Counted from the first letter of the stretch, positions 3,121 through 25,136 are shown. The stretch is DNA of 64,000 nt from Candidatus Omnitrophota bacterium (GCA_020057115.1 JAGVGJ010000032.1:23722-87721); one strand, 5' to 3'. Numbers and translations are program-made. Notes: a model not told the origin generated them from the letters alone.

Positions 3121-4233
3121 TTAAATTCCGACAAATTGCCGATAAACTGCCGATAATATATAGGATCGGGATCGATTAGATCTGTCAGCGGTTACCAACC
3201 AGCCATCTTTGACCCATCTACGGATCAGGTTCCGCGCCATGCGGCCGGATAAGCCTAATGCCTGAGCAACGTCCTGCGTAATAATATGCTCCTTCTTGGT
3301 AAAAAAAGAAAAGACGATGCGGGCCCGGCGATCAAGTTGTCTTATGAGCTTCGGTTCAGCCTGAACACCTTTTTGAGAAAGCCCAATAGCCTCATCTTTT
3401 GCCTGCGTAAATACTCTGGCCAGGAGAGCGGTAAAATATTCCACCCAGCTTGTCAGGTCTGTCTGAGCCCTGCCTTCGTAGTAGTTATGATGTTTGTGAG
3501 TGGTAAGCGAATTATAATAACCCTCCAAGTCGCGAGCGTGATGTTCTTCCATGGAAAAGAAACCGTGCAGGCCATAATTATCACGCTGCAAGATAAAAGT
3601 TGCCAGAAGCCTGGCCGTCCTGCCGTTGCCATCATAGTATGGATGTATCGTAACGAACTGATAATGCGCCAAAGCCGCAATCATAGGAACGGGTATTTTT
3701 TCTTTTTCTGCCCGATGTATCCAGCGCACCATTTCTGTCATAAGGCCCGACACATCCTTGGCCTCAGGCGGTAAGTAGACAAGCGCGCCGGTCGATGAAT
3801 CACGGATCGCGTTCTGGCCTTCACGATAAGGTGTGGCTTTGGCCCTTTTGCCGTTCCAAACGATCGCATGCAGGCGCTTTATAAGATCTTCGGTCAATTC
3901 GATATGCCTTGAGGCCCAGTCCTCGACTTTAAGAAGCGCGTCCCAGTAATTGCGCACTTCTTTAACGTCTCGCTCCCTTCCATGGAAATGCGCCTTAGGC
4001 TCAGCAATGACCCGCTCCGCTTCTTTCAGCGTAAGACGGTTACCTTCGATACGCGTTGAATAATGAGATGACCGGACTCGCGCTTTATGGCGAAGCTCAG
4101 CTTCAATAGCCGGGGATAAAGGCGTATTTTCCACCACTGCCTTGGCCGCTTCGATATCCATGAGCGACCGGGCAATATTCGGGCTTATCCTGTAAGCAGG
4201 TTTCCAGATGGGGTATTTATTGTTCGCTTTCAT
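3121..4233 (-). CDS. Fic/DOC family protein (class II, N-terminal inhibitory SxxxEG motif), paralog 1
   Basis: It carries the Fic active-site motif HPYYDGNGRTARL and the inhibitory motif STRIEGN. The N-terminal 37 codons of the track ORF lie in AT-rich promoter-like sequence. The start was moved to the ATG at 4231-4233 (MKANNKYPIW). Confidence 0.8.
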   Translation of the reverse strand: MKANNKYPIWKPAYRISPNIARSLMDIEAAKAVVENTPLSPAIEAELRHKARVRSSHYSTRIEGNRLTLKEAERVIAEPKAHFHGRERDVKEVRNYWDALLKVEDWASRHIELTEDLIKRLHAIVWNGKRAKATPYREGQNAIRDSSTGALVYLPPEAKDVSGLMTEMVRWIHRAEKEKIPVPMIAALAHYQFVTIHPYYDGNGRTARLLATFILQRDNYGLHGFFSMEEHHARDLEGYYNSLTTHKHHNYYEGRAQTDLTSWVEYFTALLARVFTQAKDEAIGLSQKGVQAEPKLIRQLDRRARIVFSFFTKKEHIITQDVAQALGLSGRMARNLIRRWVKDGWLVTADRSNRSRSYILSAVYRQFVGI

Positions 4234-4239
4234 AATATA

Positions 4240-4268
4240 ATTATACCATTTATAGGAAATAAATGCAA
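4240..4268 (-). promoter_or_regulatory. sigma70-like promoter for Fic paralog 1 (TTGCAT-17nt-TGGTATAAT), near-leaderless
   Basis: The minus-strand sequence reads TTGCATttatttcctataaatggTATAATtatattATG. It has an extended -10 TG and a 17-nt spacer. Confidence 0.4.
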
Positions 4269-4380
4269 CATCAATGATAATTTTATATAAAAAGTATCTT
4301 ATTATTTCCGATAAATTTCCTATTGTATCATACGATACTATCATCCTATTATATTTAGAATCCCAGAAGAATTTCTTAGA

Positions 4381-4477
4381 AAAGATCGGTTCGAACTTTA
4401 TTTTAAAAGAGCGCCGGATAAATTTTTCGTCGGAAGGTACCTTCCGACTCTATTTACCCGACGCCCCTTGTCCTAAC
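4381..4477 (-). repeat. conserved tRNA-Ser trailer element, copy A (contains 18-nt perfect palindrome TCGGAAGGTACCTTCCGA at 4430-4447)
   Basis: It shares about 90% identity with 21201..21329 downstream of tRNA-Ser(UGA), apart from a 33-nt indel. It sits between the tRNA 3' end and the Fic gene. Confidence 0.7.
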
Positions 4478-4569
4478 TGGCGGAGAGATAGGGATTCGAA
4501 CCCTAGGACAGCCTTTCAGCCGTCGCACGCTCTCCAAGCGTGTGCCTTAAACCACTCAGCCATCTCTCC
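4478..4569 (-). tRNA. tRNA-Ser (anticodon GGA), with CCA encoded
   Basis: Reverse complement GGAGAGATGGCTGAGTGGTTTAAGGCACACGCTTGGAGAGCGTG...GGGTTCGAATCCCTATCTCTCCGCCA. It has a long variable arm, a TTCGAAT T-loop and the anticodon loop TTGGAGA. Confidence 0.85.
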
Positions 4570-6646: not shown

Positions 6647-9600
6647 TTACAGGGACATCAATACGGCATCCTGGGCGCGCTTCCAGGCCTTGATATCATT
6701 GAAGTTTATCTTCCTTATCGGGAGGGTATAGCCCTTCTCGAATATCTTCTTCAATATATCCTTCGGATCCTCCTTGCCGCTTGCGACAAGCGCTATCATG
6801 TTGAGAAGGTCCTGGTGGTCCTGAGCGGCCCTCTCCTCCGCAGTGAGGCGGTCGTAATCGAGGAGTTTTATTCCGAATGCGAAGAATGTAGCTGTGTCCG
6901 GGAATTCTCCTGCGGTGTCTATCGACACGACTCTTACCCTGTCAAGTCCGGGGGTATTTTTTTCTGCAAGGTCTTTCATGACGAGAGAGAATGTCTTCTC
7001 GAGTTTCTTTGGCAGGAATACGATCGCTCTTGCGTCTTTCGGCGCCGCAGCAGCTTCCATGGCCTTGGCGGCTTTTGTTATTATATCGGCTATCTCGAAA
7101 TCGCTTGCGTCTTCCATGCCGATAATAGATTTGGCGCTAACATTAAAATCTTTCTCAATAACGCCGCCGGCCCTATTGCCTATATTGGTGCCCGGGGCTT
7201 TCAACCCTAAATCCGGCAGGAACTGGACTACTACGTTAAGTTTGTTTGGCCAGGCGCTCGAGAGGCTTTCAGCTATAACAACAAATCTCAAACTTGCTTC
7301 TATCATTTGTTTATTCTCAGCGGAGAGGGGCGATGAGTCTAAAGCTTCAAGGAGCTGTTTTATCACTTTGTCGGCAGTTAAGGCGCTATTCTTTGTGAGG
7401 CTTCCGAGCACATCTTTTGCGGCATTGTTCAGCGCGGCCTGGTCAAGCTTTGAGCCAGGTATAAGCTGTTCGGCAACAATACGGTCAAGGGCTTGCGAGT
7501 AAGGACTGGCCACAAGCGAAGTCGGCGATGGGACAACCGGACCTATAACGCCGCTCGTTGAGATAGACTGGCCGCTGGTATCAAGGACTTTCTTGGATTC
7601 ATCGATTGGGCCCAGCTCATCGTAACCGGCAACTTCGAGGGTCCCGACGCTTCCATCTGCATCCGGATAAAGCGTGGCATTCATTTTGTATTTGCCCGCG
7701 TCATAATCTTTTTCATATATAGTAAATAGGGCTTTTGCTTTCGCGCGCGACTCCGCCCTCAGTGCCGGATCAAGCTTCGACAAGAATTTCCTGAATGCCG
7801 TTTTGTCTTTGGCAGGCGCTTGCAGGAAATCTACGGCGAAATGTGCGATCGTAGCGGTAGGTATCCCTCCGAGCTTCGGGTCCATCTCGACCGCTTTATT
7901 AAGAGAGGATGCGGCAGCGGTGAAGTGCTCCTCTAAACCGGTGTCTCTAAGTCTCTTCAAGGCCTCTCCGGCCTCTAAGAGATATTGCGTGATCTTATCC
8001 TCCGGCGTTATCGCCGCTTTCTCGACCGCCGGCGTAACCACCATAGCTGTTGGCGCGGCAGGCACAACCGGCCTTCTGACGTCACTAAGCCTGTAGATGA
8101 GGAGGTTCGCATCGTCATGGACTATCGAGTCTACGGTCTTCACGGTGCCATCGGGCTGGATCACATCTTTTTTGACCATATTCTTAGCCATCGAATCTAT
8201 CGTGCTCTTGCCCGCGGCTATCTGAAGTGCCTCATGTGAGGCCTTCATGAGAAAATAATCATTGGCAGTCTTGTCGGTAAAAGGCGCGTAGCTTCCGACC
8301 TTGAAATCGGCGGGGTCGTATATATCATTCCTCTCGGCATCCATAGCTTCATTGAACCTGTCATTTGCGAAAACTATGGCCCGCACATTATCTTTAACGA
8401 TTATATTGGCTCTCGCATAAGCCGGCAGAAGTGTCTCCACTTGATTCGGATCAAGCATATCTATGTTCTTAAGCGGTTCGATGGCTTTCTCCCGGACGAA
8501 CCCTAGGGCCGTCGCCTTCTTCTTAGATGATTCGCTTGTGATATTATCGGCAATATATTTATCCACTGCCGCGCGCTTGTCGCTTTCATTGGTAAGCATA
8601 GCATCGGACATTATCTCTTTTATCTTGGCTGTCAGGTCCGTAGGAACATCTCTACTTATAACGGCTATCGGCATGCCGCCGGCATTATAGTCATAGGTAC
8701 GCTTAAGCCTATTATCTATCAAGACAGAATTATAAGTAATAAACATCCTGGTGCTCCCGAGTCCGACCTTCGCCAGTTCAAGCGACATGGCGGCCTGCAG
8801 ATAAGCTTGATATGCTGATAACACCTTCTTTGTCTGGCCTACTTGGTCGCCTTCGGGCATCGTCGATGCTATAGTCTCTATCGCCTCGATCGCTGTCATC
8901 ATCTTACCGTTCATCGGATAACGGAAATCCTTCGCTATCCTGTATAATATGCACCCGACTATGGCGCCCTGTATGCCATGGCCCGATACATCGCCCATCT
9001 CCATAAGAGCGAAGCGGCCGTCCTTGCTTTCAGCGAATGAATGCCAGTCCCCGCCTGCCGCATTTGCCGCGTCGAAAGGATTTTGTATCATCTGCTTCCT
9101 AAATATATCTACATTCTGCGTCTTAATGCCTTTATCAAGCTCGGTCTGTATCGCGTTAAACTCTTCAGAAGTGACGCCAAACATGCTGATGGCCCTCGCC
9201 ATGCTTTCAGCGTCATTGTGCTCTTCGAGCGTCTCCATTACATCCTTCGAGAGGAGCGTCTTATTATGCTTCACGATCTCCTTGTTAATAGCATTGTCGA
9301 TGACATCGGCGGCCTTGCTCAGCTCTAGAGCTTTCGTTATTGCAGCTGTGGCCATCTGAAGCTGGACTCTATCTAATATATTGATCTTCATCTGTCCTCT
9401 TAAAGCATCTACAGCCTCTTTCTGCACTATCCCAGCGGCATTTAGATTTACAAGCATGTCCAGTGCCACGTTAAGGTCTATCGCCTCTACGCCTTCGTTA
9501 GCCTTTAAGGCCTCTTGTCTTATATCTTCAATGCTCTTGTCTTCCGCCGCTCTCAACTCTTCAGCGTCTTTTAAAGCTGCAGTGGCGGCATTCAGCAATT

Positions 9601-12600
9601 TCTTGTCTCTTGCCTGAAGTATGCTGATAGCGATCTTTAGATCATTTATGTCATTCTGCATCGGCACTATATTAGCATTCAATTTCTCGACAACGCGCTT
9701 TACGCTGAACCGCGCCTTATCCAGCTCGGCCGTTTTTACAAAACTGACCGCATGACGAAGTTTAGCGTCACCGAGCACCTTCTTAGCTTCACCGGCAAGG
9801 CCTGATTTTGCCCCTTCAAACATAGAAACAGCGTTCTTAAGGTTTCCGACATCCTTCATGCTCGGGACCGGCTTATTCTTTCCAAGGAGGACGACAAGCT
9901 CTGCCTTATGGAGAATCGCATTATTGGTAGCTGTGGCCAGGGCAGCGTCAATGTCTGGGGTGGCCGGCGAGACCGTAAGGTTCATGAAATCTAGGACTTT
10001 AAGCGTTCCGTCTGACATCCTGCCGATATTGCCGAGAATATTGCTCTCGGTATCCACGGTAAAATAGAGGCCTCTGGCCCTTAGACTCTCCAAGAATGAT
10101 TTGGTTTCGGTTTTCAAAGTTTCTCTTGCATTGTCATCTTGAGCCTGTTCCATTTCGTCCAGAAGGGTATTGTTGGCGCGCACCTGGAGTATTATCTTCT
10201 CTCCATTCGTCGCTTCGATCATATCGAAAGCAGCTATCGCGTCACCGCCTGAATCCTTTATCTTCTTTATGGCCTCAGCAAAATCTTTAGCGCCCATCTC
10301 CCTGGTCAACGCGCTCTCCGGAGTCTCTTTACGGCCTGTCATAACGCTCTGGAATCTCTTAAGCTCCACGGGAACCTGTTCATCGCCAGGAGTCCTAAGC
10401 TCAAAGGCTAGCGTATGCCTGCCGACGCCGTCCAGTTCCGCGACCAGCCCGTCTGCTATATCTCCTTTATAGCCTCCCGCGCGGGACGCCATATCGGCTA
10501 CGGCCTTTTGCGGTATGAGCGCCGAGAACCCGACGGCCGAAGGATCACTAATGCTTATGGCTTTACCTTTAACATAATCGACCACCCCGGCAGTGTATTG
10601 TGCGTCGTTCAATTTATTAAGAGCGGCTGTAACGTCTTCTATACGGTAATGGCTCTGCCCGGCCAGGCGGTCTATCTCGGAATTAAGTTTTTTACTTCTA
10701 GCTTCGGGATTATTGGCAGTCCGTTCAAGCTCAGCGCGAAGGTCACGTCTAAGGCCTTTCAGTACATCATTCCGCTCTTTTATCTCGTGCATGAGCTTAG
10801 CTGTAAGCTCCTTCTCTTTACCTTTCTCCAGGAGGCTGCTATCAAGATATATCTGATTCCTGCCCAGGCTATAGTGCGCCTTCTGGCCCCTTATAAATAT
10901 CAATGTCGTATCTTTAAGCATGTCGGCTATACCGAGTGAGCCTATCACTTCTTTAAGAAAAGCCGCTTTTTCGGGCGAATCAAGTCCGTCTATTATATCG
11001 CCTGCCTGGTGTCCGGCATTTTCATCAAGGGTCCTATCAAGCGTTATCCCGGTCTTAACCGCATTGCCTGCGCTAATATTGTAGGCAAGGAACTGGCCTC
11101 GCCGTAATGCAACTTTTATAAGAGTTGTGTAGCTGTCATTGGGCAGATTGTCCGCGCCGCGCCCGCCTACGATCGCAACACCGGCTGCGGCTGCTACGTC
11201 TGTACCCATAAGCCCCGCCAGAGGTCTCCACACGGTTACGACATTGCCTGAGATGCCCATAGCTATATCATCTAGAGTATAGTTCTTCTGCTCTCCTCCT
11301 TTGGTCAGGTTCTCGCAAATAATGTCCTCGCCTCTAACCTCTTTGACCAGCCTTAATGTACCTGAAGCGCTGAGTATGATATCTCCTTTTTGGGGCTGAT
11401 CTATGTTTCCGAGGATATTCGGGGACCTGTTATAAAAATTTGCCAGAAAAATGGATAGCGCCGGGAGATATTGGTCCTCTTTCATGGAGCCGGTGGGCCG
11501 CCACGCGCTTGCCGCGCCTTGTGAAAGCCGTCTATTGATCTGGTCGAGCTTAACGATATCTTCCCTGCCTGTTGAAAGGTTCTCCATGACAACATCATTT
11601 CCATCTATGCTGGTTACGGCCCTCGATGTTCCAGAAGCGCTAAGCATGATATCCCCGGCCTGAAGCTGCGTCCTCCTGCCTAATACTAATGGACCAATAT
11701 TCGAGCATCCTGTAAGAAAAGTTGCCAAAGATGCAGGATAAGCGCCTAAAGCGGGAGCCATTTTCTTTACGGCAGGCCTTGCCGCGATAGCGGCAGCTGG
11801 ACGAGCTGCCGGAGCGGCCTTTGCAATAACCGTTCTGTTCATGAGGCCTTGCGCGCCTTCTTCGTATTTCGCCACATTGCCAAGCGGATCTACTTCCAGT
11901 ATTCCGCCTTTACTGCCACGCTGGCGATAATTGCCGGACATGCCGCCGTCTATACAATATACGTCGCTGTCAAGCCCTGTAAAGTTTTTGATCTCTCCTG
12001 AGCCGACAGCATGCCCTACTATCAATCGGAAATTGACATCCTTGCCAAGGCCCATCTGCTTGCGCATCGCTTCATAAAGTCTTTCTCTGTCACTGCGTTC
12101 TGCTCCTTCGCTGGCCCATTCCTTTGCATATGGCCATATATCCATACCCCTTTCGGCGTCAAAAAACATCCCTATAGCTTCGTCAAGCCCTGCCATAAGA
12201 CCGCCTTTTGTCCCATCGACTTTAGCGGCATTGGCCGGATCATAAACATAATTAAATACTGCCGCGGGGATGCTGGCATGCGCGATTATATTACCGTCAA
12301 CAGCCGCTACGCGTTTGAGATTGAGGAAGAAATCTACAACACCGTCCTTCTTCATGTTCTGGAACGCGGCTCCGAATTCACCATACTTGTCTACTTCGGC
12401 AGAGCTGCCTTTATAATTTTCGTAAAACTCTTGCACTGTATTCATAACATCCATAACCGCTCTGGGGTTGAATCCCAGCTTAAAGGCTATATCCCCGGCC
12501 CTCTCCTGCGCCGTCTTGAGGTCGACCTTCCCCATCGTCCCCATATCTTCAAAAAGTTTTCGCATTACATAATCATGGTTGCCTTCTATGGTGATGACCA

Positions 12601-17668: not shown

Positions 17669-17915
17669 GGTGGCTTAGCCCCTTCTTTCATTTTATAAAT
17701 ACTTTTTAAATCTTTAAATTATCTCCTCTAAAAAAATGCCTTTCCGAGCGTCGCTTCGGTCCAGCTTACTTCGAGCGTCCTTCAATTATAAGTTTACCTG
17801 ATGGATATGAAAATACAAGGAAACTTAGCTAGCTTTTTTCAATACTAACATTTGCTAGTTTTTCGGATAGAATTGGAGGCATGTGAGGCGGCGTCGGTAT
17901 CAGAGATACCGACAT

Positions 17916-17947
17916 CCGCCATATTTTTCAGAAGAAAAATATGGCGG
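17916..17947. repeat. 14-bp perfect inverted repeat CCGCCATATTTTTC-agaa-GAAAAATATGGCGG overlapping the 3' end of tRNA-Ser(CGA)
   Basis: The sequence is read directly. The right arm is the tRNA acceptor 3' strand plus CCA. A second hairpin (GGCGGCGTCGGTATC-agag-ATACCGAC..) follows at ~17885-17915. Confidence 0.5.
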
Positions 17948-18031
17948 AGAGGGAGAGATTTGAACTCTCGTACCCCGTTAGGGGTAACACGCTTTCGAGG
18001 CGTGCGCGATCAACCGCTCTGCCACCTCTCC
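17942..18031 (-). tRNA. tRNA-Ser (anticodon CGA), with CCA encoded
   Basis: Reverse complement GGAGAGGTGGCAGAGCGGTTGATCGCGCACGCCTCGAAAGCGTG-long arm-GAGAGTTCAAATCTCTCCCTCTCCGCCA. Confidence 0.85.
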
Positions 18032-18262: not shown

Positions 18263-18667
18263 CTACAATTCCTGCCTGGCCCATATGTAGAACCTCTCGG
18301 CCTGTTTTAAGATCTCGAGAGCATCGTGTTGTGAAAAAACCGCATTGTCATATTCTATCAAAGACTTCTTCGCCAGAATACGGCGAAATGCGCTTAACTT
18401 ATCACCGACTCCATCGATCTTAAGATTCTGCTTCATAAGGTCCAGCGCAACCATATGGTCTCTGTCTATCGACCTCCTCCCGCCATATCTGACAAGAAGC
18501 GCATCGGCTATCGAAATAGCGCAATGTACCGCATTCAATCCAACCGCACTCCAGTAACCTTCTTTCTCAGCGTGAAGCATGGACTTATAGAATTCCTCTG
18601 CCTTCTTCTTATAATTCAAGTATTGAGACCTGTCGACTTCCGCTGTTTTAACCTTCTTCGATGTCAT
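18263..18667 (-). CDS. HEPN-domain protein (putative toxin of HEPN/MNT pair)
   Basis: It is a small 134-aa protein with an Rx4-6H-like motif (RRSIDRDH). It overlaps the upstream MNT gene by 4 nt (ATGA). Confidence 0.6.
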   Translation of the reverse strand: MTSKKVKTAEVDRSQYLNYKKKAEEFYKSMLHAEKEGYWSAVGLNAVHCAISIADALLVRYGGRRSIDRDHMVALDLMKQNLKIDGVGDKLSAFRRILAKKSLIEYDNAVFSQHDALEILKQAERFYIWARQEL

Positions 18668-19317
18668 ATTACCAACCTTTCAAGAGGCCTCCCCTGGACC
18701 AGTATATAAGCGCTCAGGATCTCTTTTACTATCGGCTCATTATCTTTATGCCTTCTCTTAAATTGATCTATCGATAATACATATGGCACGATCGCGGTCT
18801 GAAAATCACGAGCTACTGCATCTGCTATCAGGTCGAGGCTCTCCTCAACTTTCTCTTTGTCCCTAACGCTGCCGAGGACTACGATCAAGTCTATGTCGCT
18901 CTTTGGCCCCTCTCTTCTCCTGGCTACGCTTCCGAAAATAGCCACTGTCTCGACAGTCGCTTTCGGACGCGATACCGCTTTTTTTATAAGGGCCGTAACG
19001 GCAGGTAATATACTTTTCTCCTTTTCAAAGAAAGGCTTTACAAGGACCTTTACAATGTAGCTATCCGTATTAAGCGAGTAAAGATAGGCCTTACCTGCGG
19101 ACGAGGCTTTCACAACCCCGTCTTCTTTCAGGCTATTGAGGAATTTATTTATGGTAGTCGGGCTCGCGGTGAGAAGCCTTGCAAGCTGCCGCCCTGTCAA
19201 TCCGGCGCTTTCCTTGCACAGTATGCGTAATATGCCGGTCTTCAGCTTGTGATCGAACACCCTGTCGAGCGCATTATATATAAGCATGGGGTTTTCCTTG
19301 TCCATTAAATTGGACAT
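18664..19317 (-). CDS. nucleotidyltransferase (MNT/pol-beta superfamily) with N-terminal winged-helix domain (putative antitoxin)
   Basis: It has the GS-x(n)-DxD nucleotidyltransferase motif GSVARRREGPKSDIDLIVV. The N-terminal HTH-like region is TGRQLARLLTASPTTINKFLNSL. Confidence 0.65.
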   Translation of the reverse strand: MSNLMDKENPMLIYNALDRVFDHKLKTGILRILCKESAGLTGRQLARLLTASPTTINKFLNSLKEDGVVKASSAGKAYLYSLNTDSYIVKVLVKPFFEKEKSILPAVTALIKKAVSRPKATVETVAIFGSVARRREGPKSDIDLIVVLGSVRDKEKVEESLDLIADAVARDFQTAIVPYVLSIDQFKRRHKDNEPIVKEILSAYILVQGRPLERLVI

Positions 19318-19349
19318 ATGTCCACTATTATGGATATAGGATACCTTAT

Positions 19350-19375
19350 TTAACGGCCCTTGTCAAGGGGCGGGC
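19350..19375 (-). promoter_or_regulatory. putative promoter/operator of MNT-HEPN operon: -35 TTGACA embedded in palindrome CCCTTGACAAGGG
   Basis: It lies about 45 nt upstream of the MNT start codon. The sequence was read on the minus strand. Confidence 0.35.
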
Positions 19376-19431
19376 TCACTATTTCTGCTATCTTTTCTTC
19401 GCCTCTGCTGCCATCCTGGCTACTAATGCAA

Positions 19432-19481
19432 ACGTCCTGTTTAGGTACATCCTACTCGCAGGATGTACCTAAACAGGACGT
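19432..19481. repeat. 22-bp perfect inverted repeat with 6-nt loop (ACGTCCTGTTTAGGTACATCCT-actcgc-AGGATGTACCTAAACAGGACGT)
   Basis: The sequence is read directly. It is the strongest hairpin in the window and lies between the Fic2 cassette and the MNT/HEPN operon. Confidence 0.8.
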
Positions 19482-19495
19482 CCGATCATTTTACT

Positions 19496-19553
19496 TTACC
19501 CGTCGCCCCGTGTCTTAACTGGCGGTGTGTTCTCGAGTTTGTTCGAACTCACT
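19496..19553 (-). repeat. orphan copy of the tRNA-Ser trailer element (first ~27 nt) fused to a degenerate tRNA 3'-end remnant (GAGTTCGAACAAACTC...ACCGCCA)
   Basis: TTACCCGTCGCCCCGTGTCTTAACTGG matches 21303-21329 at 25 of 27 positions. The adjoining sequence retains a T-arm-like hairpin and ...CCGCCA. Confidence 0.55.
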
Positions 19554-19566
19554 TTATGAAAGAAAG

Positions 19567-19605
19567 TGTCATTGCGAGCCCCGCCGCAGGCGAGGCAAAG
19601 CAATC
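19567..19605 (-). repeat. REP-like element copy (GATTGCTTTG-hairpin-CTCGCAATGACA family), reverse orientation
   Basis: The motif matches the copies at 22266, 23595 and 25092. Confidence 0.6.
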
Positions 19606-19850
19606 TATCAAAGAAAAAAGTCTTTAACGCTTGGCTCGGCCCGGCCACAGGCCGGGCGCGTCCTCGCCACACACTCTGAAGCGTAATAATGTATGCATAA
19701 CGGCTAAAGGCTCATCCGCCCCACCTCAGCCTACAACTTGCCAACTACATGGGGCTTCGGTGGTTGCCGAGCCCCTCACCCCAAAAGATCTTGAGGCAAA
19801 AAGAACAAAAATGCCTCAATGGGCAGAATTTGGTTAAAAAGACCTTTCTT

Positions 19851-21011
19851 TTACTTCTCTCCTAATAAATCTAGCAATTCTTTGGCGCAAAAAACTTTCC
19901 CCCACCTCTTATTACTAGCTCCAGAAAGTATTTTCATCTCTTGCAGCTTCTTAACCGCGGCTTTGGCAGTGGGATAGCTAGTTTCTAATTTTTTAGCTGC
20001 ATAGGGAATCGTAACAAATGGATTCAAGAAAACTTGATCCAACAGTTTTAATGCATATGTTGATCCTCTATCTTTTTGAATAAGCTTACGATATTTATCT
20101 AATAGTTTAAGTATCGATTTAGAATTTTCTATGGCGTCCTTCGATTGGACTGCCACTGCCCGCAAGAAAAACTTAGCCCATTCTTCCCATTCGCCATTCT
20201 CGCTTACAGCTAATAGTCTTTCATAGTATTCGCTGCGATATTTCTCAAAAAAAGCACTGAGATAAAGCATGGGATATACCAAATATTCTCTTTCGCCTAA
20301 GAATAGAGTGGTAAGTAGCCTGCCCATCCTTCCGTTACCATCTAAAAATGGATGGATCGCTTCAAATTGATAATGGATCAAAGCGCATTGTATAAGACCG
20401 GGGAAATTATTTCTATCGTGCAAGAACTTTTCAAAATGCCCTAACGCATCGTTCATTTCACGTACAGGCGGTGGTACAAATTTTGCATTGTTTAGAGTGC
20501 ATCCCGCGGGACCTATCCAATTTTGGCTGCGCCTAAATTCGCCGAGAGTCAGATGCTCTCCTCTTACCCCCCTCATTAACTCTCTGTGGATCTCTCTAAT
20601 AAGACGAAGAGAAAGAGGAAGTTCTTTTAATCTTTGAATTCCATAGTTTATCGCTTTTACATAATTAACTACTTCGAGGACATCTGTTTTTTTAACCTCT
20701 TTTTGTTTTTCTTCCTTATTCGCTGCTTCAAAATAAAAAAGATCCGATAGGGATGCTTGAGTGCCCTCAATTTTCGAACTGAGAACAGCTTCTCTTTTAA
20801 TATAGGGCGTTATAAGGAGGTTGGGGTTAGGTAGTAACGCGCCAACACCTGAGAGATTGCCTAATTGACGATCGGCCTCAGAAAGCAAATTAACCATTTC
20901 TTTGCCGTAGACAATAGCTGGCGGAAGTGGGTTAGGCACAAAAGCCCAATAATCTCTTTCTGTTTTTATTATTTTTCCGGCTTTGCTATTTTTAAACCTG
21001 GCTATATCCAT
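19851..21011 (-). CDS. Fic/DOC family protein (class II), paralog 2
   Basis: It has the canonical HPFLDGNGRMGRL motif and the inhibitory SSKIEGT motif. The start is an ATG. Confidence 0.85.
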   Translation of the reverse strand: MDIARFKNSKAGKIIKTERDYWAFVPNPLPPAIVYGKEMVNLLSEADRQLGNLSGVGALLPNPNLLITPYIKREAVLSSKIEGTQASLSDLFYFEAANKEEKQKEVKKTDVLEVVNYVKAINYGIQRLKELPLSLRLIREIHRELMRGVRGEHLTLGEFRRSQNWIGPAGCTLNNAKFVPPPVREMNDALGHFEKFLHDRNNFPGLIQCALIHYQFEAIHPFLDGNGRMGRLLTTLFLGEREYLVYPMLYLSAFFEKYRSEYYERLLAVSENGEWEEWAKFFLRAVAVQSKDAIENSKSILKLLDKYRKLIQKDRGSTYALKLLDQVFLNPFVTIPYAAKKLETSYPTAKAAVKKLQEMKILSGASNKRWGKVFCAKELLDLLGEK

Positions 21012-21064
21012 AATTTCCTAATATTTTGCGCCTCACCGATAATAGGTAGTTAGCCCCAGCTTTA

Positions 21065-21125
21065 AGTATACTTTAGACTTTTAAAGAAATCAAGCTTTTT
21101 CTTTAATTGCTATTTTAGCAATTAA
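21065..21125 (-). promoter_or_regulatory. Fic2 promoter (TTGATT-17nt-TATACT) with upstream 23-nt palindrome TTAATTGCTA-ttt-TAGCAATTAA (candidate operator)
   Basis: The -10 is at 21065-21070, the -35 at 21088-21093 and the palindrome at 21103-21125 on the minus strand. Confidence 0.45.
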
Positions 21126-21200
21126 AGTACCTTATAATTCTATTTCAACCTCTTTCTCAAGTTTTTAGGGACATGCCATTTTACGCCCCCTATTGCCCCG

Positions 21201-21329
21201 AAAAAGATCGGTTCGAACTTTATTTTATCCCTCGCATTCGCTCGGGACGCTTCGCAGAAAGAGCGCCGGATAAATTTTTCGTCGGAAGGTACCTTCCGAT
21301 TCTTCTTACCCGACGCCCCGTGTCTTAAC
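21201..21329 (-). repeat. conserved tRNA-Ser trailer element, copy B (palindrome TCGGAAGGTACCTTCCGA at 21282-21299; carries 33-nt insertion relative to copy A)
   Basis: The alignment to 4381-4477 was done by eye. Confidence 0.7.
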
Positions 21330-21419
21330 TGGCGGAGGAGGTAGGATTCGAACCCACGGAGGCATTGCTGCCTCAACAGTTTTCAAGACTGCCGCGATCA
21401 ACCGCTCTGCCACTCCTCC
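21330..21419 (-). tRNA. tRNA-Ser (anticodon UGA), with CCA encoded
   Basis: Reverse complement GGAGGAGTGGCAGAGCGGTTGATCGCGGCAGTCTTGAAAACTGTTGAGGCAGCAATGCCTCCGTGGGTTCGAATCCTACCTCCTCCGCCA. Confidence 0.85.
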
Positions 21420-21524
21420 ACCCTAAAACGCCTAAAGAACAATTTTTCCCGCCAAACAACTTTATTGTAAAACTATGCGTCTTTAAAGAGGAGTTTGTCG
21501 GGACTCCCTCGCTTCGCTCGGTCG

Positions 21525-21560
21525 CAAGACTGCCGCGATCAACCGCTCTGCCACTCCTCC
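21525..21560 (-). pseudogene. partial duplicate of tRNA-Ser(UGA): 5' half only (positions 1 to ~36, ends inside the anticodon loop) plus ~30 nt of its upstream region
   Basis: GGAGGAGTGGCAGAGCGGTTGATCGCGGCAGTCTTG is identical to the 5' part of the full tRNA located 105 nt away. The upstream flank (cgggaaaactgttctttagatattttgtg) is also duplicated with about 80% identity. Confidence 0.7.
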
Positions 21561-21592
21561 GCACAAAATATCTAAAGAACAGTTTTCCCGTT

Positions 21593-22255
21593 CTAGAAAA
21601 ACAGCTGCCTCACTATCGCGATGTATATATCTCTCGACCCGAATATAAAATCCACAAAGAAGCGCTTTATGTGGAATGACGGGAATACGAGCCCGAACAT
21701 GAGCGCTATCACAAGGATATTCAGCATGTACACAAGCACGATCGAAAAGAAATAGCCTGACTTCACTATGTCCGGCTGTTTCACCTTCATTATCTCTATG
21801 GTCGATATAATATGGAAGGCGAGCGCGAACCCTATCAGAAATATGAATATCGAGCCGTTGATATTATACGATGCGAGAAGCACAAAATAAACTAAAGTTA
21901 TCAGTATCGCGTATATCGGGACAAAGTAGGGGCTGAGCTCTATCACGACATTCGATTTATCCATGCCGACACTTCCGCCCTCTTTCGACACCTGGAATGA
22001 ATTTATTTTCGCGCCAAATATCCAGGCGACGCCGGCATGCACAGCCTCGTGGCCCAAAACATAAAAGAATGTCGGCTTGTAAAATAAGAGGTGCAGTGCC
22101 ACATAGGCCGCGATACCCCATAAGAAATAATTAAGGCTCGCTGACAGTTCTTTTATCATGGCCATATTATGATAAAAGGCTACCGTCACGCCGAAGGCAA
22201 GCGGCACTACTAGGACCGCGATAGAAAATTTTAGCAATACCTTTAAGAATTCCAT
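21593..22255 (-). CDS. polytopic membrane protein with HExxH motif (GHEAVHAG), putative intramembrane zinc metalloprotease
   Basis: It has about six hydrophobic segments. An HEAVH motif sits at the start of a TM helix. No further family assignment is possible without a search. Confidence 0.45.
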   Translation of the reverse strand: MEFLKVLLKFSIAVLVVPLAFGVTVAFYHNMAMIKELSASLNYFLWGIAAYVALHLLFYKPTFFYVLGHEAVHAGVAWIFGAKINSFQVSKEGGSVGMDKSNVVIELSPYFVPIYAILITLVYFVLLASYNINGSIFIFLIGFALAFHIISTIEIMKVKQPDIVKSGYFFSIVLVYMLNILVIALMFGLVFPSFHIKRFFVDFIFGSRDIYIAIVRQLFF

Positions 22256-22265
22256 ATATTGATAT

Positions 22266-22304
22266 GATTGCTTCGTCGGCCCTTCGGGCCTCCTCGCAAT
22301 GACA
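22266..22304. repeat. REP-like element (GATTGCTTCGTC-GGCCC-TTCG-GGGCC-TCCTCGCAATGACA), immediately 3' of serS
   Basis: The sequence is read directly. It belongs to a family of at least 4 full copies. Confidence 0.65.
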
Positions 22305-22306
22305 CC

Positions 22307-23581
22307 TTACGGTTTAATGACCTCTTTACCGTCCATGTAAGGGACGAGCGCTTTCGGTATGCGGACAGATCCGTCCGCATTCTGGTAATTCTCCAGGATC
22401 GCCACGACGAGCCTTGCCAGCGCAACGCCCGAACCATTGAGCGTGTGGATATAACTCATCTTCTTCGACTCTTTCTGGCGGTAGCGTATATTCGCCCGGC
22501 GCGCCTGGAAGTCGGTGAAGCAGGAGCAGCTTGATACTTCGAGATATGAATTCACCCCGGCCGCGAACAGCTCTATGTCATAGCATTTGGCCGCGGAGAA
22601 TGATATGTCGCCCGTAGCCAATAGGACGACCCTATATGGCAGCTCAAGCGCCTGGAGCACGTCTTCCGCATCTTTAACAAGGCTCTCGAGTTCATCGAAT
22701 GATGTTTTGGGCCTCACGAACTTCACCATCTCGACTTTGTCGAACTGGTGGACCCTTATCAAACCCTTTGTATCTTTACCGTATGATCCGGCCTCGCGCC
22801 TGAAACATGCGGTATAAGCAGTATAGCGGATGGGCAGCTTGTCCTCATCCAGCACTTCGCCTGAGAGCATGTTCGTGACAGGGACCTCTGCGGTAGGTAT
22901 GAGAAAAAGGTCGTCATCTTTTAATTTGTACATGTCCTCTTCAAGTTTCGGGAGCTGGCCTGTCCCTGTCATGCTGCGCCTGTTTACCAAAAACGGCGGG
23001 AATATCTCCGTATAGCCATGCTTTTTTGTGTGCATGTCCAGCATGAAATTTATGAGCGCCCGCTCCAGGCGCGCGCCGGCTCCTTTAAATAATACGAAGT
23101 TTGAGCCTGTTATCTTTGCCGCGATACCGAAACATATAATATCAAGTATTTCGCTAAGCTCAATATGGGTCCTTGGAGTAAAGTTAAATTTAGGAATATT
23201 GCCCCATGAACGGACTATTTTATTGGCCTGCGGGCTGCCTACAGGTACGGATTTATCTGGTATATTTGGGATAGAATACATAAATGAGGCCATTTTTTCA
23301 TCAATTTCCCCCACTTTATTATCTAATTCGCCTATTTTTTGGGAAACTGACTTCATTCTCTCTATAACCTCTTTTGCATTCTTCTTCTCCTTCATAAGGA
23401 TCGATATCTCATCGTTCGCCTTATTCCTCTGGGCCTTAAGCTCCTCGACCTCTACCAATAGCTTTCTGCGGCCCTCATCCAGGGCCAATAATTCATCTAC
23501 ATTGATCTTCAGCAGGTTCCTGTTCTTAAGGGCCTCTTTGACCAGGTTGCTATTTTCTCTTATGAACTTTATATCCAACAT
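22307..23581 (-). CDS. serS: seryl-tRNA synthetase
   Basis: It has an N-terminal coiled-coil arm (MLDIKFIRENSNLVKEALKNR...). The class II core motifs and length (424 aa) are typical of SerRS. Confidence 0.85.
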   Translation of the reverse strand: MLDIKFIRENSNLVKEALKNRNLLKINVDELLALDEGRRKLLVEVEELKAQRNKANDEISILMKEKKNAKEVIERMKSVSQKIGELDNKVGEIDEKMASFMYSIPNIPDKSVPVGSPQANKIVRSWGNIPKFNFTPRTHIELSEILDIICFGIAAKITGSNFVLFKGAGARLERALINFMLDMHTKKHGYTEIFPPFLVNRRSMTGTGQLPKLEEDMYKLKDDDLFLIPTAEVPVTNMLSGEVLDEDKLPIRYTAYTACFRREAGSYGKDTKGLIRVHQFDKVEMVKFVRPKTSFDELESLVKDAEDVLQALELPYRVVLLATGDISFSAAKCYDIELFAAGVNSYLEVSSCSCFTDFQARRANIRYRQKESKKMSYIHTLNGSGVALARLVVAILENYQNADGSVRIPKALVPYMDGKEVIKP

Positions 23582-23594
23582 ATAGCTCCTTATA

Positions 23595-23629
23595 GATTGC
23601 TTCGGCCGCTTCGCGGCCTCGCAATGACA
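23595..23629. repeat. REP-like element copy between serS and rtcB
   Basis: GATTGCTTCGGCCGCTTCGCGGCCTCGCAATGACA. Confidence 0.65.
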
Positions 23630-25091: not shown

Positions 25092-25136
25092 GATTGCTTC
25101 GTCGTCCCGCCTTCGGCGGGACTCCTCGCAATGACA
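25092..25136. repeat. REP-like element copy between rtcB and archease
   Basis: GATTGCTTCGTCGTCCCGCCTTCGGCGGGACTCCTCGCAATGACA. Confidence 0.65.

What the first reader, a model, noticed from the sequence alone, without database searches (positions are those of the whole stretch)
3121..4569. Two divergent Fic-family paralogs are each the first gene downstream of a tRNA-Ser plus conserved-element module
Fic1 (3121..4233; HPYYDGNGRTAR, inhibitory STRIEGN) follows tRNA-Ser(GGA). Fic2 (19851..21011; HPFLDGNGRMGR, SSKIEGT) follows tRNA-Ser(UGA). Both have their own sigma70-like promoter between element and gene. Fic2 additionally has a 23-nt palindromic operator-like site. A repeated tRNA-Ser to element to Fic cassette suggests either a tRNA-Ser-targeting mobile cassette carrying a Fic effector/toxin, or a functional coupling between Fic proteins and serine tRNA biology that I do not know to be described.
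Basis: partly seen in the sequence, partly recalled or inferred. Interest (0 to 1): 0.7.

Follow-up and report, generated by a model that had tools for sequence, protein, structure and literature searches.

The report
Fic defence genes at tRNA-Ser hotspots
Two unrelated, self-contained Fic (SoFic-like AMPylase) genes sit just after two serine tRNA genes because those tRNA ends are landing sites for mobile DNA, not because Fic proteins work with serine tRNA.

Summary
Two Fic genes (3121-4233 and 19851-21011, minus strand) are each the first gene after a tRNA-Ser. Both tRNAs are followed by a near-identical ~100-nt element (93/98 nt), although the tRNAs are only 70% alike.

It is mobile DNA, not Fic/tRNA-Ser biology.
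- The Fic proteins are 23% identical. Each travels as a one-gene module with its own promoter and is found in unrelated contexts elsewhere.
- Fic2 has foreign composition (GC3 34% vs ~57%) and lies in a 1.8-kb islet bounded by a 30-nt direct repeat.
- Its 94% homolog sits beside a tyrosine integrase and a 21-nt tRNA-Ser(GGA) 3' fragment. An 80% homolog sits inside a duplicated mnmE 3' end.
- In related Omnitrophota the same tRNA-Ser(UGA)/tRNA-Ser(CGA) interval is empty (20 nt) or holds other cargo, such as an R-M system or a nucleotidyltransferase.
- Of 80 Fic1-family loci, none has an upstream co-directional tRNA-Ser.

The element is a terminator-like hairpin plus a 26-nt box centred on TTCGAA. 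In four other contigs that box lies beside a large serine recombinase gene, between a Fic1 homolog and a tRNA.

Both proteins match the PADLOC SoFic anti-phage model. Verdict: defence cargo at tRNA integration hotspots, a new member of a known kind.

The parts
4478..4569 (-). tRNA-Ser(GGA), with encoded CCA
   Evidence: ARAGORN; Rfam tRNA, 53.3 bits.
4406..4477 (-). Element copy 1, arm: 72 nt directly after the CCA. Contains a long, imperfect, GC-rich hairpin (about 4409-4467) followed by a U-rich tail, so it looks like a terminator.
   Evidence: RNA fold of 4370-4480: -41.8 kcal/mol, z=-5.2. Part of the 80-nt match (4406-4485) that is 93.75% identical to the UGA copy. No Rfam family matches.
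4380..4405 (-). Element copy 1, 26-nt box TAAAATAAAGTTCGAACCGATCTTTT, centred on the palindrome TTCGAA. Putative recombination site.
   Evidence: 26/26 identical to 21202-21227 (family D8). 19/19 match to L114 and 18/19 to L121, L151 and L153, next to a large serine recombinase gene and a tRNA.
4234..4324 (-). Fic1 promoter/operator region: extended -10 TGGTATAAT about 8 nt before the ATG with no Shine-Dalgarno (probably leaderless), bracketed by a 15-nt inverted repeat (4248-4262 / 4302-4316).
   Evidence: 85.6% identical over 90 nt to the upstream region of the 92% homolog in L005, which sits in an unrelated context. Inverted repeat. The consensus promoter scan found nothing here.
3121..4233 (-). 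Fic1: 370-aa Fic-domain protein with an N-terminal inhibitory motif STRIEGN and the active-site loop HPYYDGNGRTAR.
   Evidence: Pfam Fic 3e-20. PADLOC SoFic model 1.6e-53. Nearest solved structure 4rgl, 1.6e-21. Thousands of homologs at about 70% identity across phyla.
21330..21419 (-). tRNA-Ser(UGA), with encoded CCA
   Evidence: ARAGORN; Rfam.
21202..21329 (-). Element copy 2: arm (21258-21329), a 30-nt mini-hairpin insert (21228-21257) and the 26-nt box (21202-21227).
19807..21145 (-). Fic2 module: a perfect 27-nt palindrome (21101-21127), the TTGATT-17-TATACT promoter (21065-21093) and the CDS 19851-21011 (386 aa; Fic_N plus Fic, with a C-terminal region that aligns to the SoFic model and structures over nearly its whole length).
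   Evidence: 90% DNA identity over exactly this span to L001-L004. The same unit is 67-84% identical in four more contexts. GC 39.4% and GC3 34.1% against a window GC of 47.8%. PADLOC SoFic 4e-120 over the full profile. SoFic structures 3.6e-35.
19526..19806 (-). Right arm of the Fic2 islet: GC-rich, structured, non-coding. It includes one REP-like hairpin and ends in a motif that resembles a tRNA 3' end, AAAGTGAGTTCGAACAAACTCGAGAACACACCGCCA (third GTTCGAAC box at 19541).
   Evidence: Aligns with L001 12640-12953, including an identical GAGAACACACCGCCA. The same terminal motif follows Fic1 homologs in L121, L151 and L114. No convincing small ORF.
19496..19525 (-). Direct repeat of the tRNA-Ser(UGA) 3' end plus the first 24 nt of the element (CCGCCAGTTAAGACACGGGGCGACGGGTAA). 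Distal boundary of the 1.8-kb Fic2 islet.
   Evidence: 29/30 identical to 21306-21335 and 27/30 to 4454-4483 (family D3).
19433..19480 (-). Perfect 20+ bp hairpin directly after the repeat. Possibly the terminator of an older insertion.
   Evidence: Fold -63.5 kcal/mol, z=-7.6; terminator-like scan hit.
18263..19317 (-). MNT (winged-HTH plus nucleotidyltransferase, 18664-19317) and HEPN (18263-18667) toxin-antitoxin pair. Further accessory cargo in the same interval between the two tRNAs.
   Evidence: Pfam; PADLOC candidate families PDC-M05A and PDC-S09; weak NCBIfam MntA hit.
17942..18031 (-). tRNA-Ser(CGA). In relative L014 it lies only 20 nt after tRNA-Ser(UGA), so it marks the far side of the insertion hotspot.
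21525..21568 (-). Partial 5' copy of tRNA-Ser(UGA) ending at the anticodon loop. Its upstream ~28 nt are duplicated too.
   Evidence: family D2 (93%); sequence.
22307..23581 (-). Seryl-tRNA synthetase. Used as the conserved anchor for the synteny comparison.
   Evidence: Pfam; related loci.

Best explanation
Both Fic genes are horizontally mobile, single-gene defence/toxin modules of the SoFic type: class II Fic AMPylases with a built-in inhibitory helix. They have come to rest in integration hotspots at the 3' flank of tRNA-Ser genes.

Shown:
- Each gene travels with its own promoter and operator and is found in unrelated genomic contexts elsewhere.
- The interval between tRNA-Ser(UGA) and tRNA-Ser(CGA) is a variable site in related Omnitrophota.
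- Fic2 lies in a compositionally foreign 1.8-kb islet bounded by a 30-nt direct repeat.
- Close homologs sit at recombinase-associated junctions: a tyrosine integrase plus a tRNA-Ser(GGA) 3' fragment in one case, a duplicated mnmE 3' end in another.

Inferred:
- The shared ~100-nt element is the tRNA-proximal end of an integrative element family. Its hairpin plus U-tract terminates the tRNA transcript and insulates the cargo. Its 26-nt box centred on TTCGAA is a recombination site.
- In four metagenomic contigs the same box lies next to a large serine recombinase (LSR) gene, at the inner edge of the inverted repeats that flank it, between a Fic1 homolog and a tRNA.
- The recombinase has been lost from the window or acts from elsewhere in the genome.
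- The Fic proteins probably act as in SoFic: they are auto-inhibited, are released on phage infection, AMPylate host targets and abort the infection. They probably repress their own transcription through a C-terminal DNA-binding domain acting on the palindrome.
For: 1. The modules are mobile.
- The Fic2 span 21145-19807 (palindrome, promoter and gene) is 90% identical to L001-L004 and 67-84% identical in L174, L176, L181 and L189. Those are five different neighbourhoods.
- The Fic1 promoter plus gene is conserved in L005 between unrelated genes.

2. The site is a hotspot. SerRS-anchored synteny shows tRNA-Ser(UGA) and tRNA-Ser(CGA) 20 nt apart in L014, 356 nt in L016, 5.3 kb in L017 and 3.3 kb in the window. 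After tRNA-Ser(UGA), L020 carries a DNA methylase plus an MjaI restriction enzyme and L019 a DUF6036 nucleotidyltransferase; L018 carries the same gene by sequence. L017 carries porin, binding-protein and kinase genes.

3. Islet signatures.
- A 30-nt direct repeat, 29/30 identical.
- GC3 of 34% against roughly 53-66% in most neighbouring genes.
- The right arm is homologous to L001 and ends in an identical GAGAACACACCGCCA.

4. Recombinase links.
- The 94% homolog of Fic2 follows a Phage_integrase gene in a prophage-like region. A 21-nt exact copy of the window's tRNA-Ser(GGA) 3' end plus the first 3 trailer bases lies between them.
- The 80% homolog lies between 211-240-nt direct repeats of the mnmE 3' end, 91% identical.

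5. Box and LSR.
- AAGTTCGAACCGATCTTTT matches 19/19 or 18/19 in L114, L121, L151 and L153, about 100-125 nt 3' of the adjacent tRNA end (tRNA-Ser, tRNA-Asp, or in L114 a partial tRNA-Asp copy).
- There it lies in the 3' part of a ~510-aa Resolvase/Recombinase/Zn-ribbon gene placed directly after a Fic1 homolog.
- It sits at the inner edge of 124-144-nt inverted repeats that flank that gene.
- GTTCGAAC occurs exactly three times in the 64-kb window, all at these junctions.

6. Defence identity. PADLOC SoFic model: 4e-120 for Fic2 and 1.6e-53 for Fic1. Both hit PHROG 5978. Homologs at 30-32% identity, annotated MloA, sit near the ends of several Streptococcus Javan phage genome records.

7. Literature. 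SoFic is a standalone Fic defence protein (10.1101/2022.05.11.491447; PMC12249575). In E. coli, 18 defence hotspots lie in tRNA loci (PMC10121019). Fic/Doc genes are frequent on genomic islands (PMC4454073).
Against: - No integrase or serine recombinase gene lies in the 64-kb window. tblastn with the LSR finds only a weak hit over the element itself.
- The Fic1 locus has no distal repeat and no compositional anomaly: GC 49%, GC3 51%.
- Exact-pattern searches for the element found nothing in viral or metagenome collections. The element family therefore rests on two and a half copies in one genome plus a 19-nt box elsewhere.
- The peptide-level match to the LSR C-terminus (E=0.001) is inflated by the overlap with antisense tRNA sequence.
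- Part of the right-arm similarity to L001 comes from a REP-like element that is common in these genomes.
- The closest 'empty site' genome shares only 69% SerRS identity, so it is a distant relative.
- The two element copies share the same inner end point. One copy may therefore derive from the other by gene conversion rather than from two independent integrations.
- No Fic activity or defence phenotype has been tested.
Confidence: 0.75

Rival explanations
1. Functional coupling. The Fic proteins act on serine-tRNA biology (for example they modify SerRS, tRNA-Ser or its partners), or their expression is tied to the tRNA-Ser transcript. The tRNA / element / Fic order would then be selected for function.
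For: - Two independent Fic genes follow two tRNA-Ser genes in one window.
- The nearest Fic2 homolog also follows a tRNA-Ser(GGA) 3' fragment.
- SerRS and the RNA ligase RtcB lie just upstream of tRNA-Ser(UGA).
- One Fic2 homolog is inserted at mnmE, a tRNA-modification gene.
Against: - 0 of 80 Fic1-family loci have a co-directional upstream tRNA-Ser. The tRNAs found nearby are Asp, Pro, Cys, Gln, Lys, Arg and Ser, on either strand.
- 4 of 6 distinct Fic2 contexts have no tRNA.
- The 92% homolog of Fic1 has a coding gene, not a tRNA, upstream.
- A strong hairpin with a U-tract separates tRNA and Fic, and each Fic gene carries its own conserved promoter.
- The mnmE 3' end is a classical integration site: SGI1 integrates at trmE (my own knowledge).
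- In relatives, the tRNA-Ser(UGA) flank holds unrelated cargo.
Confidence: 0.04
2. Ordinary trailer. The conserved element is simply the native terminator and trailer of tRNA-Ser genes in this lineage, kept alike by gene conversion between tRNA-Ser loci. The two Fic genes landed next to it by chance or by generic insertion into permissive intergenic DNA.
For: - The element folds as a terminator-like hairpin with a U-rich tail.
- tRNA T-arm and acceptor similarity could seed gene conversion.
- Fic1 has no distal repeat and a native-like composition.
- The element was not found anywhere else by exact-pattern search.
Against: - tRNA-Ser(CGA) in the same window lacks the element.
- tRNA-Ser(UGA) in six related Omnitrophota loci lacks it.
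- The first 24 nt recur after the motif resembling a tRNA 3' end at the far end of the Fic2 islet.
- The 26-nt box recurs next to LSR genes beside other tRNAs and Fic1 homologs in other genomes.
- The chance that two of a genome's few Fic genes are each the first gene after a tRNA-Ser is of order 1e-5 under random placement (my estimate).
Confidence: 0.1
3. One integration plus an internal duplication. Only one locus arose by site-specific integration. The arm plus box at the other tRNA-Ser was copied by recombination between the two tRNA-Ser 3' ends, and the second Fic module was then inserted or swapped in separately.
For: - The two copies are 95% identical and end at exactly the same base...CCGATCTTTT.
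- Sequence diverges completely 1 nt further on.
- The cargo differs: the Fic proteins are 23% identical and have different promoters.
Against: The data do not distinguish this from two integrations of related elements. A shared end point is also what a defined recombination site would give. This is a variant of the best explanation rather than a contradiction of it.
Confidence: 0.11

Closest known systems
SoFic single-gene anti-phage defence system (Millman et al. 2022; SoFic of Shewanella oneidensis; EcSofic)
   Same: A standalone class II Fic protein of about 370-390 aa, with Fic_N, an internal inhibitory motif, the HxFx(D/E)GNGRxxR loop and a C-terminal domain. Fic2 matches the PADLOC SoFic model end to end (4e-120) and SoFic structures at 3.6e-35. 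Fic1 matches at 1.6e-53.
   Different: Neither protein reaches the NCBIfam SoFic equivalog cut-off: 194.6 and 53.3 bits against 550. Fic1 is closer to the 4rgl / FICD-like branch. No AS1-like small downstream gene is evident. Defence activity is untested, and the host is an uncultured member of the Omnitrophota.
tRNA-associated genomic islands and defence-island integration hotspots (Williams 2002; Hochhauser et al. 2023, PMC10121019)
   Same: Accessory and defence cargo lies immediately 3' of a tRNA gene. The site has variable content or is empty in relatives. There is a direct repeat of the tRNA 3' end, the cargo has foreign composition, and several insertions have piled up at one site (Fic2 islet plus MNT/HEPN).
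   Different: The islets are tiny (1-2 kb, one gene) and carry no recombinase. The repeat lies mostly in the trailer (6 nt of tRNA plus 24 nt) rather than inside the tRNA. The Fic1 locus has no distal repeat.
Decayed or cis-mobilisable integrative elements (CIMEs) and SGI1-type integration at the trmE/mnmE 3' end
   Same: Att-flanked DNA with no recombination module of its own. The 80% Fic2 homolog sits between about 240-nt direct repeats of the mnmE 3' end, as SGI1-family elements do.
   Different: No evidence here that a helper element mobilises these islets. The comparison rests on my own knowledge of CIMEs and SGI1.
Large-serine-recombinase integrative elements and invertible segments
   Same: A palindromic core (TTCGAA, with central CG) lies at the junctions. 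In L114, L121, L151 and L153 an LSR gene lies immediately next to the box and the tRNA.
   Different: Known LSR elements rarely target tRNA flanks. I do not know of a described LSR element whose recombinase gene is bracketed by 124-144-nt inverted repeats with outer ends at a tRNA CCA end. No LSR gene is present in the window.
Prophage morons and Fic/Doc genes on genomic islands (Khater & Mohanty 2015, PMC4454073)
   Same: A self-contained gene with its own promoter, located at the edge of a mobile element. Fic/Doc genes are reported to be frequent on islands with integrases. Distant homologs annotated MloA sit near the ends of several Streptococcus Javan phage genome records.
   Different: No close relative was found in the IMG/VR viral contigs.

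Membership tests
Fic/Fido AMPylase, class II (internal inhibitory helix) | Fic domain above Pfam's gathering score | tested here: met
   Fic1 73.3 bits and Fic2 76.3 bits against a cut-off of 24. Fic2 also has Fic_N at 95.4 bits.
Fic/Fido AMPylase, class II (internal inhibitory helix) | Active-site loop HxFx(D/E)GNGRxxR | tested here: met
   Fic2 has HPFLDGNGRMGR, an exact match. Fic1 has HPYYDGNGRTAR, with Tyr in place of Phe.
Fic/Fido AMPylase, class II (internal inhibitory helix) | Inhibitory motif (S/T)xxxE(G/N) in the same chain, N-terminal to the Fic core | tested here: met
   STRIEGN in Fic1 and SSKIEGT in Fic2, both N-terminal to the core.
Fic/Fido AMPylase, class II (internal inhibitory helix) | AMP transfer to a protein target | not testable with these tools
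   Needs biochemistry.
SoFic anti-phage defence system | Full-length match to the PADLOC SoFic profile as a standalone gene | tested here: met
   Fic2 4e-120 over profile positions 5-358 of 361. Fic1 1.6e-53 over positions 42-357 of 361.
SoFic anti-phage defence system | NCBIfam equivalog NF046030 cut-off of 550 bits | tested here: not met
   Fic2 194.6 bits and Fic1 53.3 bits. They are SoFic-like, not SoFic orthologs.
SoFic anti-phage defence system | Small downstream antitoxin gene (AS1, 47 aa in E. coli; PMC12249575) | tested here: inconclusive
   Only overlapping short ORFs with no support lie in 19330-19860. Fic1 is followed directly by a radical SAM gene.
SoFic anti-phage defence system | Protection against phage | not testable with these tools
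   Needs a phage challenge in a host.
tRNA-targeting integrative element / genomic islet | Insertion abutting the 3' end of a tRNA gene, leaving the tRNA intact | tested here: met
   Both loci.
tRNA-targeting integrative element / genomic islet | Direct repeats (attL/attR) that include the tRNA 3' end | tested here: inconclusive
   Met for Fic2: 30 nt, 29/30 identical, 21306-21335 against 19496-19525. Not met for Fic1: no second copy found within the 3.1 kb of window that lies beyond Fic1.
tRNA-targeting integrative element / genomic islet | Empty or differently occupied site in related genomes | tested here: met
   Locus 2: L014 is empty (20 nt) and L016-L020 hold other cargo. Locus 1: the 86% and 79% radical SAM orthologs have a different upstream gene, and the 86% one (the only one with DNA available) shows no tRNA or Fic.
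tRNA-targeting integrative element / genomic islet | Recombinase gene inside the element | tested here: not met
   None in the window. Recombinases are found only next to homologs elsewhere.
tRNA-targeting integrative element / genomic islet | Atypical base composition | tested here: inconclusive
   Fic2 has GC3 34%, against roughly 53-66% in most neighbouring genes. Fic1 has GC3 51%, which is close to native.
Large-serine-recombinase element | LSR gene (Resolvase + Recombinase + Zn_ribbon_recom) next to its att site | tested here: not met
   Present in L114, L121, L151 and L153 but absent from the window. Only the 19-26-nt box is shared.
FicT/FicA or Doc/Phd toxin-antitoxin module | Separate small antitoxin gene upstream that supplies the inhibitory helix | tested here: not met
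   The inhibitory motif is internal, and no upstream partner ORF exists.

The most novel reading that the evidence does not exclude
The arm plus the GTTCGAAC box may define an undescribed family of elements driven by a large serine recombinase. Such elements would dock at the CCGCCA 3' end of tRNA genes (Ser, Asp). They would shuffle single-gene defence cassettes by recombination (insertion, deletion or inversion) at palindromic TTCGAA boxes. A cassette would consist of a Fic1- or Fic2-type gene, a structured spacer and a terminal motif resembling a tRNA 3' end. The window would then hold two recombinase-less products of that system. The LSR gene bracketed by 124-144-nt inverted repeats, seen in four metagenomic contigs, would be its active form.
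Probability: 0.2. Interest if true: 0.55.

Novelty: new member of a known kind. Interest (0 to 1): 0.3.

Why it matters
It replaces an appealing idea, that Fic enzymes are wired to serine-tRNA biology, with a mundane and testable one. tRNA-Ser 3' flanks in Omnitrophota are landing pads for small defence and toxin cargo, and SoFic-like genes are among the most mobile of that cargo.

It extends the tRNA-hotspot / defence-island pattern, known mainly from Enterobacteria and Pseudomonas, to an uncultured phylum.

It also flags a short conserved junction (hairpin plus TTCGAA box) and an oddly built serine-recombinase locus. These could be followed up as a cassette-exchange system and as a marker for finding defence islets in metagenome-assembled genomes.

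Tried and rejected
- Exact look-ups of Fic1, Fic2 and the 100%-identical protein P0121 in the contig index found nothing. The source contig and the rest of the genome could not be examined.
- Exact-pattern searches for the element were all empty: the 5' core in viral and metagenome contigs, and the hairpin arm and the box in viral contigs.
- IMG/VR holds only distant Fic2 relatives (26-39% identity) and no Fic1 relatives.
- Rfam gave only tRNAs at gathering thresholds. At permissive thresholds it gave only sub-threshold hits that overlap the tRNAs or the big hairpin. I therefore rejected the idea that the element is a known sRNA or riboswitch.
- I considered that the element is the 3' coding remnant of an LSR gene. 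The tblastn hit (E=0.001) is driven by KIGSNF plus antisense-tRNA residues, so I keep only the DNA-level box match.
- I considered that the terminal motif resembling a tRNA 3' end is the displaced host tRNA end. I rejected this because the motif is conserved between elements sitting at different tRNAs and in different hosts.
- I looked for an attR downstream of Fic1 and for further box copies in the window. There were none.
- A box-like hit inside the L016 SerRS gene was dismissed as chance.
- I looked for an AS1-like small gene after Fic2 and found nothing convincing.
Full report
**1. What is there**

All relevant genes are on the minus strand.
- ARAGORN finds tRNA-Ser(GGA) at 4478-4569, tRNA-Ser(CGA) at 17942-18031 and tRNA-Ser(UGA) at 21330-21419.
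- Fic1 (3121-4233) and Fic2 (19851-21011) are genuine Fic-domain proteins (Pfam).
- Each is the first gene after its tRNA, at 244 nt and 318 nt.
- Gene order at locus 1: GH5 cellulase, tRNA-Ser(GGA), Fic1, radical SAM/SPASM enzyme, ammonium transporter.
- Gene order at locus 2: RtcB, SerRS, a 220-aa ORF, tRNA-Ser(UGA), Fic2, an MNT/HEPN toxin-antitoxin pair, tRNA-Ser(CGA), and then a 3673-aa ORF.

**2. The conserved element**

Directly after the CCA of both tRNAs comes a 72-nt arm and then a 26-nt box, TAAAATAAAGTTCGAACCGATCTTTT. The UGA copy has a 30-nt hairpin inserted between the two.
- The copies match at 93/98 nt. The tRNAs match at 70.5%, and sequence on either side matches at about 52%.
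- The arm folds into a long GC-rich hairpin followed by a U-rich tail (z = -5.2 and -3.0). It therefore looks like a terminator.
- Rfam has nothing for it.
The tRNA end CCGCCA plus the first 24 nt of the arm recurs at 19496-19525, 29/30 identical, about 325 nt beyond the Fic2 stop codon (family D3). Fic2 thus sits in a 1.8-kb segment bounded by 30-nt direct repeats.

**3. The two Fic genes are independent mobile modules, not paralogs in the usual sense**

- They share 23% identity over 295 aligned residues.
- Fic2 is SoFic-like (PDB SoFic 3.6e-35). Fic1 is nearer to 4rgl and to FICD-type proteins.
- Both have thousands of homologs at about 65-77% identity spread over Omnitrophota, Nitrospirota, Elusimicrobiota, Planctomycetota and even Methanoperedens.
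- Fic2 has GC 39% and GC3 34% in a window of 48% GC, where most neighbouring genes have GC3 of roughly 53-66%. Fic1 is close to native at GC3 51%.
- DNA homology to other contigs covers exactly promoter plus gene and stops there.
  - For Fic2 the span is 21145-19807. It is 90% identical in L001-L004 and 67-84% identical in L174/175, L176-178, L181-188 and L189-193.
  - The perfect 12+3+12 palindrome (21101-21127) and the TTGATT-17-TATACT promoter travel with the gene.
  - For Fic1, the last ~90 nt upstream are 86% identical in L005. There the gene lies between an unrelated coding gene and a cation-transporter-like gene.

**4. Where the homologs sit**

- The 94% Fic2 homolog (L001-L004) follows a tyrosine integrase in a prophage-like region with a tape-measure-like protein, IstB and Bro-N. 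Between the integrase and the Fic gene lies ATCCCTATCTCTCCGCCAGTT, an exact 21-nt copy of the window's tRNA-Ser(GGA) 3' end plus the first 3 trailer bases. ARAGORN finds no intact tRNA in those loci.
- The far end of that islet is homologous to the window's right arm. It ends in the same motif, which resembles a tRNA 3' end: GTTCGAAC...GAGAACACACCGCCA.
- The 80% homolog (L176) lies between 211-240-nt direct repeats of the mnmE 3' end, 91% identical at DNA level and 55/59 at protein level. That is the signature of an integrative element. From my own knowledge, trmE/mnmE is the SGI1 attachment site.
- Other Fic2 homologs sit in a defence-like island (HTH, MazG-like, helicase/S24 and HNH genes), between spoVG and murA, or between a giant gene and prfB. 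None of these loci has a tRNA.

**5. The tRNA-Ser(UGA) flank is a hotspot**

I anchored on SerRS and fetched 80 related loci. The order SerRS, a ~220-aa ORF (seen where I listed ORFs, in L014 and L017), then tRNA-Ser(UGA) recurs in related Omnitrophota loci. What follows the tRNA is not conserved:
- L014: tRNA-Ser(CGA) follows after 20 nt.
- L016: 356 nt with a small ORF.
- L017: 5.3 kb with porin, binding-protein, histidine-kinase and methyltransferase genes.
- L019: a DUF6036 nucleotidyltransferase (L018 carries the same gene by sequence).
- L020: a DNA methylase plus an MjaI restriction enzyme.
- L032 (Planctomycetia): a 16-nt repeat of the tRNA 3' end about 190 nt downstream.

None of these loci carries the window's element. 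So the 3.3 kb between the two tRNA-Ser genes in the window (Fic2 islet plus MNT/HEPN) is accessory DNA at a recurrently used site.

**6. Is Fic tied to tRNA-Ser?**

Of 80 Fic1-family loci from metagenomes, 13 have any tRNA within 4 kb: Lys, Pro (3), Asp (3), Arg, Cys (2), Gln and Ser-UGA (2).
- None has a tRNA-Ser upstream on the same strand.
- The two Ser cases are convergent: the tRNA lies downstream of Fic on the opposite strand, at 283 nt and 2.2 kb.
- The 92% homolog of Fic1 has no tRNA or element upstream.
- The nearest radical SAM orthologs (86% and 79%) are preceded by a different gene; where DNA was available (the 86% one), there is no tRNA or Fic.

The pattern is 'near integration sites of many kinds', not 'near tRNA-Ser'.

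**7. The box links the element to a serine recombinase**

- AAGTTCGAACCGATCTTTT matches 19/19 in L114 and 18/19 in L121, L151 and L153. In each case it lies about 100-125 nt 3' of the adjacent tRNA end: tRNA-Ser(UGA), tRNA-Asp(GUC), or in L114 a partial tRNA-Asp copy.
- All four loci had been fetched only because they carry a Fic1 homolog.
- In each, the Fic1 homolog is followed by a conserved ~390-nt spacer and then a ~510-aa large serine recombinase with Resolvase, Recombinase and Zn_ribbon_recom domains.
- The recombinase ORF, as listed, runs into or ends close to the antisense of the tRNA or tRNA copy.
- The recombinase gene is bracketed by 124-144-nt inverted repeats that are 95-99% complementary. 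Their outer ends reach the tRNA CCGCCA end in L121 and L151, and a partial tRNA-Asp copy in L114. In L121, whose sequence I read, the inner end falls at GTTC|GAAC.
- In the window, GTTCGAAC occurs exactly three times in 64 kb: in the two boxes and in the terminal motif of the Fic2 right arm.
- The spacer after the Fic1 homologs ends in the same kind of motif, AAAGTAG-GTT..AAC...CCGCCA, as the right arm after Fic2 in the window and in L001.

I read the box as a recombination site and the arm as the tRNA-proximal end of such elements. This step is inference. There is no recombinase in the window, and the peptide-level match to the recombinase C-terminus is weak and partly due to antisense tRNA sequence.

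**8. Function of the cargo**

- Both proteins hit the PADLOC SoFic model: Fic2 at 4e-120 over the full length and Fic1 at 1.6e-53. Both hit PHROG 5978.
- Neither reaches the NCBIfam SoFic equivalog cut-off.
- SoFic is a standalone Fic AMPylase that protects against phage (10.1101/2022.05.11.491447). It is toxic when active and has been proposed to act by abortive infection (PMC12249575).
- Distant homologs annotated MloA sit near the ends of several Streptococcus Javan phage genome records.
- The neighbouring MNT/HEPN pair, and the R-M and nucleotidyltransferase cargo seen in relatives, fit a small defence islet.
- Literature already records that Fic/Doc genes are common on genomic islands (PMC4454073). 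It also records that 18 E. coli defence hotspots lie in tRNA loci (PMC10121019).

**9. Verdict**

The cause is integration-site biology.
- The 'functional coupling' alternative is not supported.
- The finding is a new member of a known kind.
- The only element of real novelty is the arm plus TTCGAA-box junction and the unusual serine-recombinase locus bracketed by inverted repeats, with which it is associated elsewhere. These deserve a targeted follow-up but cannot be resolved from this window.

Noticed in passing
window 19568-19578 (-), 22293-22303 (+), 23618-23628 (+), 25125-25135 (+); L001 12720-12752 and 12865-12897: A REP-like intergenic hairpin, GATTGCTTCG-[GC-rich hairpin]-CTCGCAATGACA. 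There are four copies in the window where 0.02 are expected, all in intergenic gaps around RtcB, SerRS and the Fic2 right arm. It also occurs in a related genome.
   Followed up: partly
window 21228-21257 and about 21500-21520 (-): A mini-hairpin, CGAGCGAA(T)GCGAGGGA, occurs twice. One copy is the 30-nt insert that interrupts the UGA copy of the element. The other lies right after the partial tRNA copy.
   Followed up: no
window 21525-21596 (-); L032 8474-9150: A partial 5' copy of tRNA-Ser(UGA), with its ~28-nt upstream region, ends at the anticodon loop and lies 105 nt upstream of the real gene. A Planctomycetia contig has three partial 5' copies upstream of its tRNA-Ser(UGA). The origin is unexplained; possibly scars of integration at the anticodon loop.
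   Followed up: partly
L121 5499-5622 / 7178-7301; L151 5504-5635 / 7141-7272; L114 5471-5614 / 7169-7312: A large serine recombinase gene is bracketed by 124-144-nt inverted repeats that are 95-99% complementary. In L121 and L151 one outer end reaches a tRNA CCGCCA end; in L114 it reaches a partial tRNA-Asp copy. The inner end falls at GTTC|GAAC in L121. A Fic1 homolog lies just outside. I do not recognise this architecture.
   Followed up: partly
L114 7298-7830: Tandem full and partial tRNA-Asp copies, with a small ORF that looks like a GIY-YIG nuclease (judged by eye, not searched against a domain library) between them, next to the recombinase locus. This looks like repeated insertion at one tRNA.
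   Followed up: no
window 23636-25069 (-): The RNA ligase RtcB (Pfam 1.3e-176) lies directly upstream of SerRS and the tRNA-Ser pair. This RNA-repair / seryl-tRNA neighbourhood sits next to HEPN and Fic toxins. It is probably coincidental.
   Followed up: no
window 6647-17668 (-): A giant 3673-aa ORF starts 274 nt after tRNA-Ser(CGA). Its only domain hit is a weak Metallophos match. A Fic2 homolog elsewhere (L189) also sits next to a protein of more than 2300 aa.
   Followed up: no
window 17900-17947 (-): The tRNA-Ser(CGA) trailer, CCGCCATATTTTTCTTCTGAAAAATATGGCGG, forms a hairpin that uses the tRNA 3' end. It resembles the start of the L121-type arm, CCGCCAAATTTTCTTCTCAGAAAATTTGGC.
   Followed up: no
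window 4233-4262 and 4248-4316 (-): Fic1 seems to be leaderless: its extended -10 (TGGTATAAT) ends about 8 nt before the ATG and there is no Shine-Dalgarno. A 15-nt inverted repeat with a TTTATCGG-like core brackets the promoter. TTTATCGG recurs at the 3' end of the gene.
   Followed up: partly
L181 7246-7670: In one Fic2-family context the gene is followed by a ~105-aa ORF and a 34-aa ORF. By eye I took these for an AbrB/MazE-like pair, but no domain hit is on record. They are possible antitoxin-like partners and are absent from the window.
   Followed up: no
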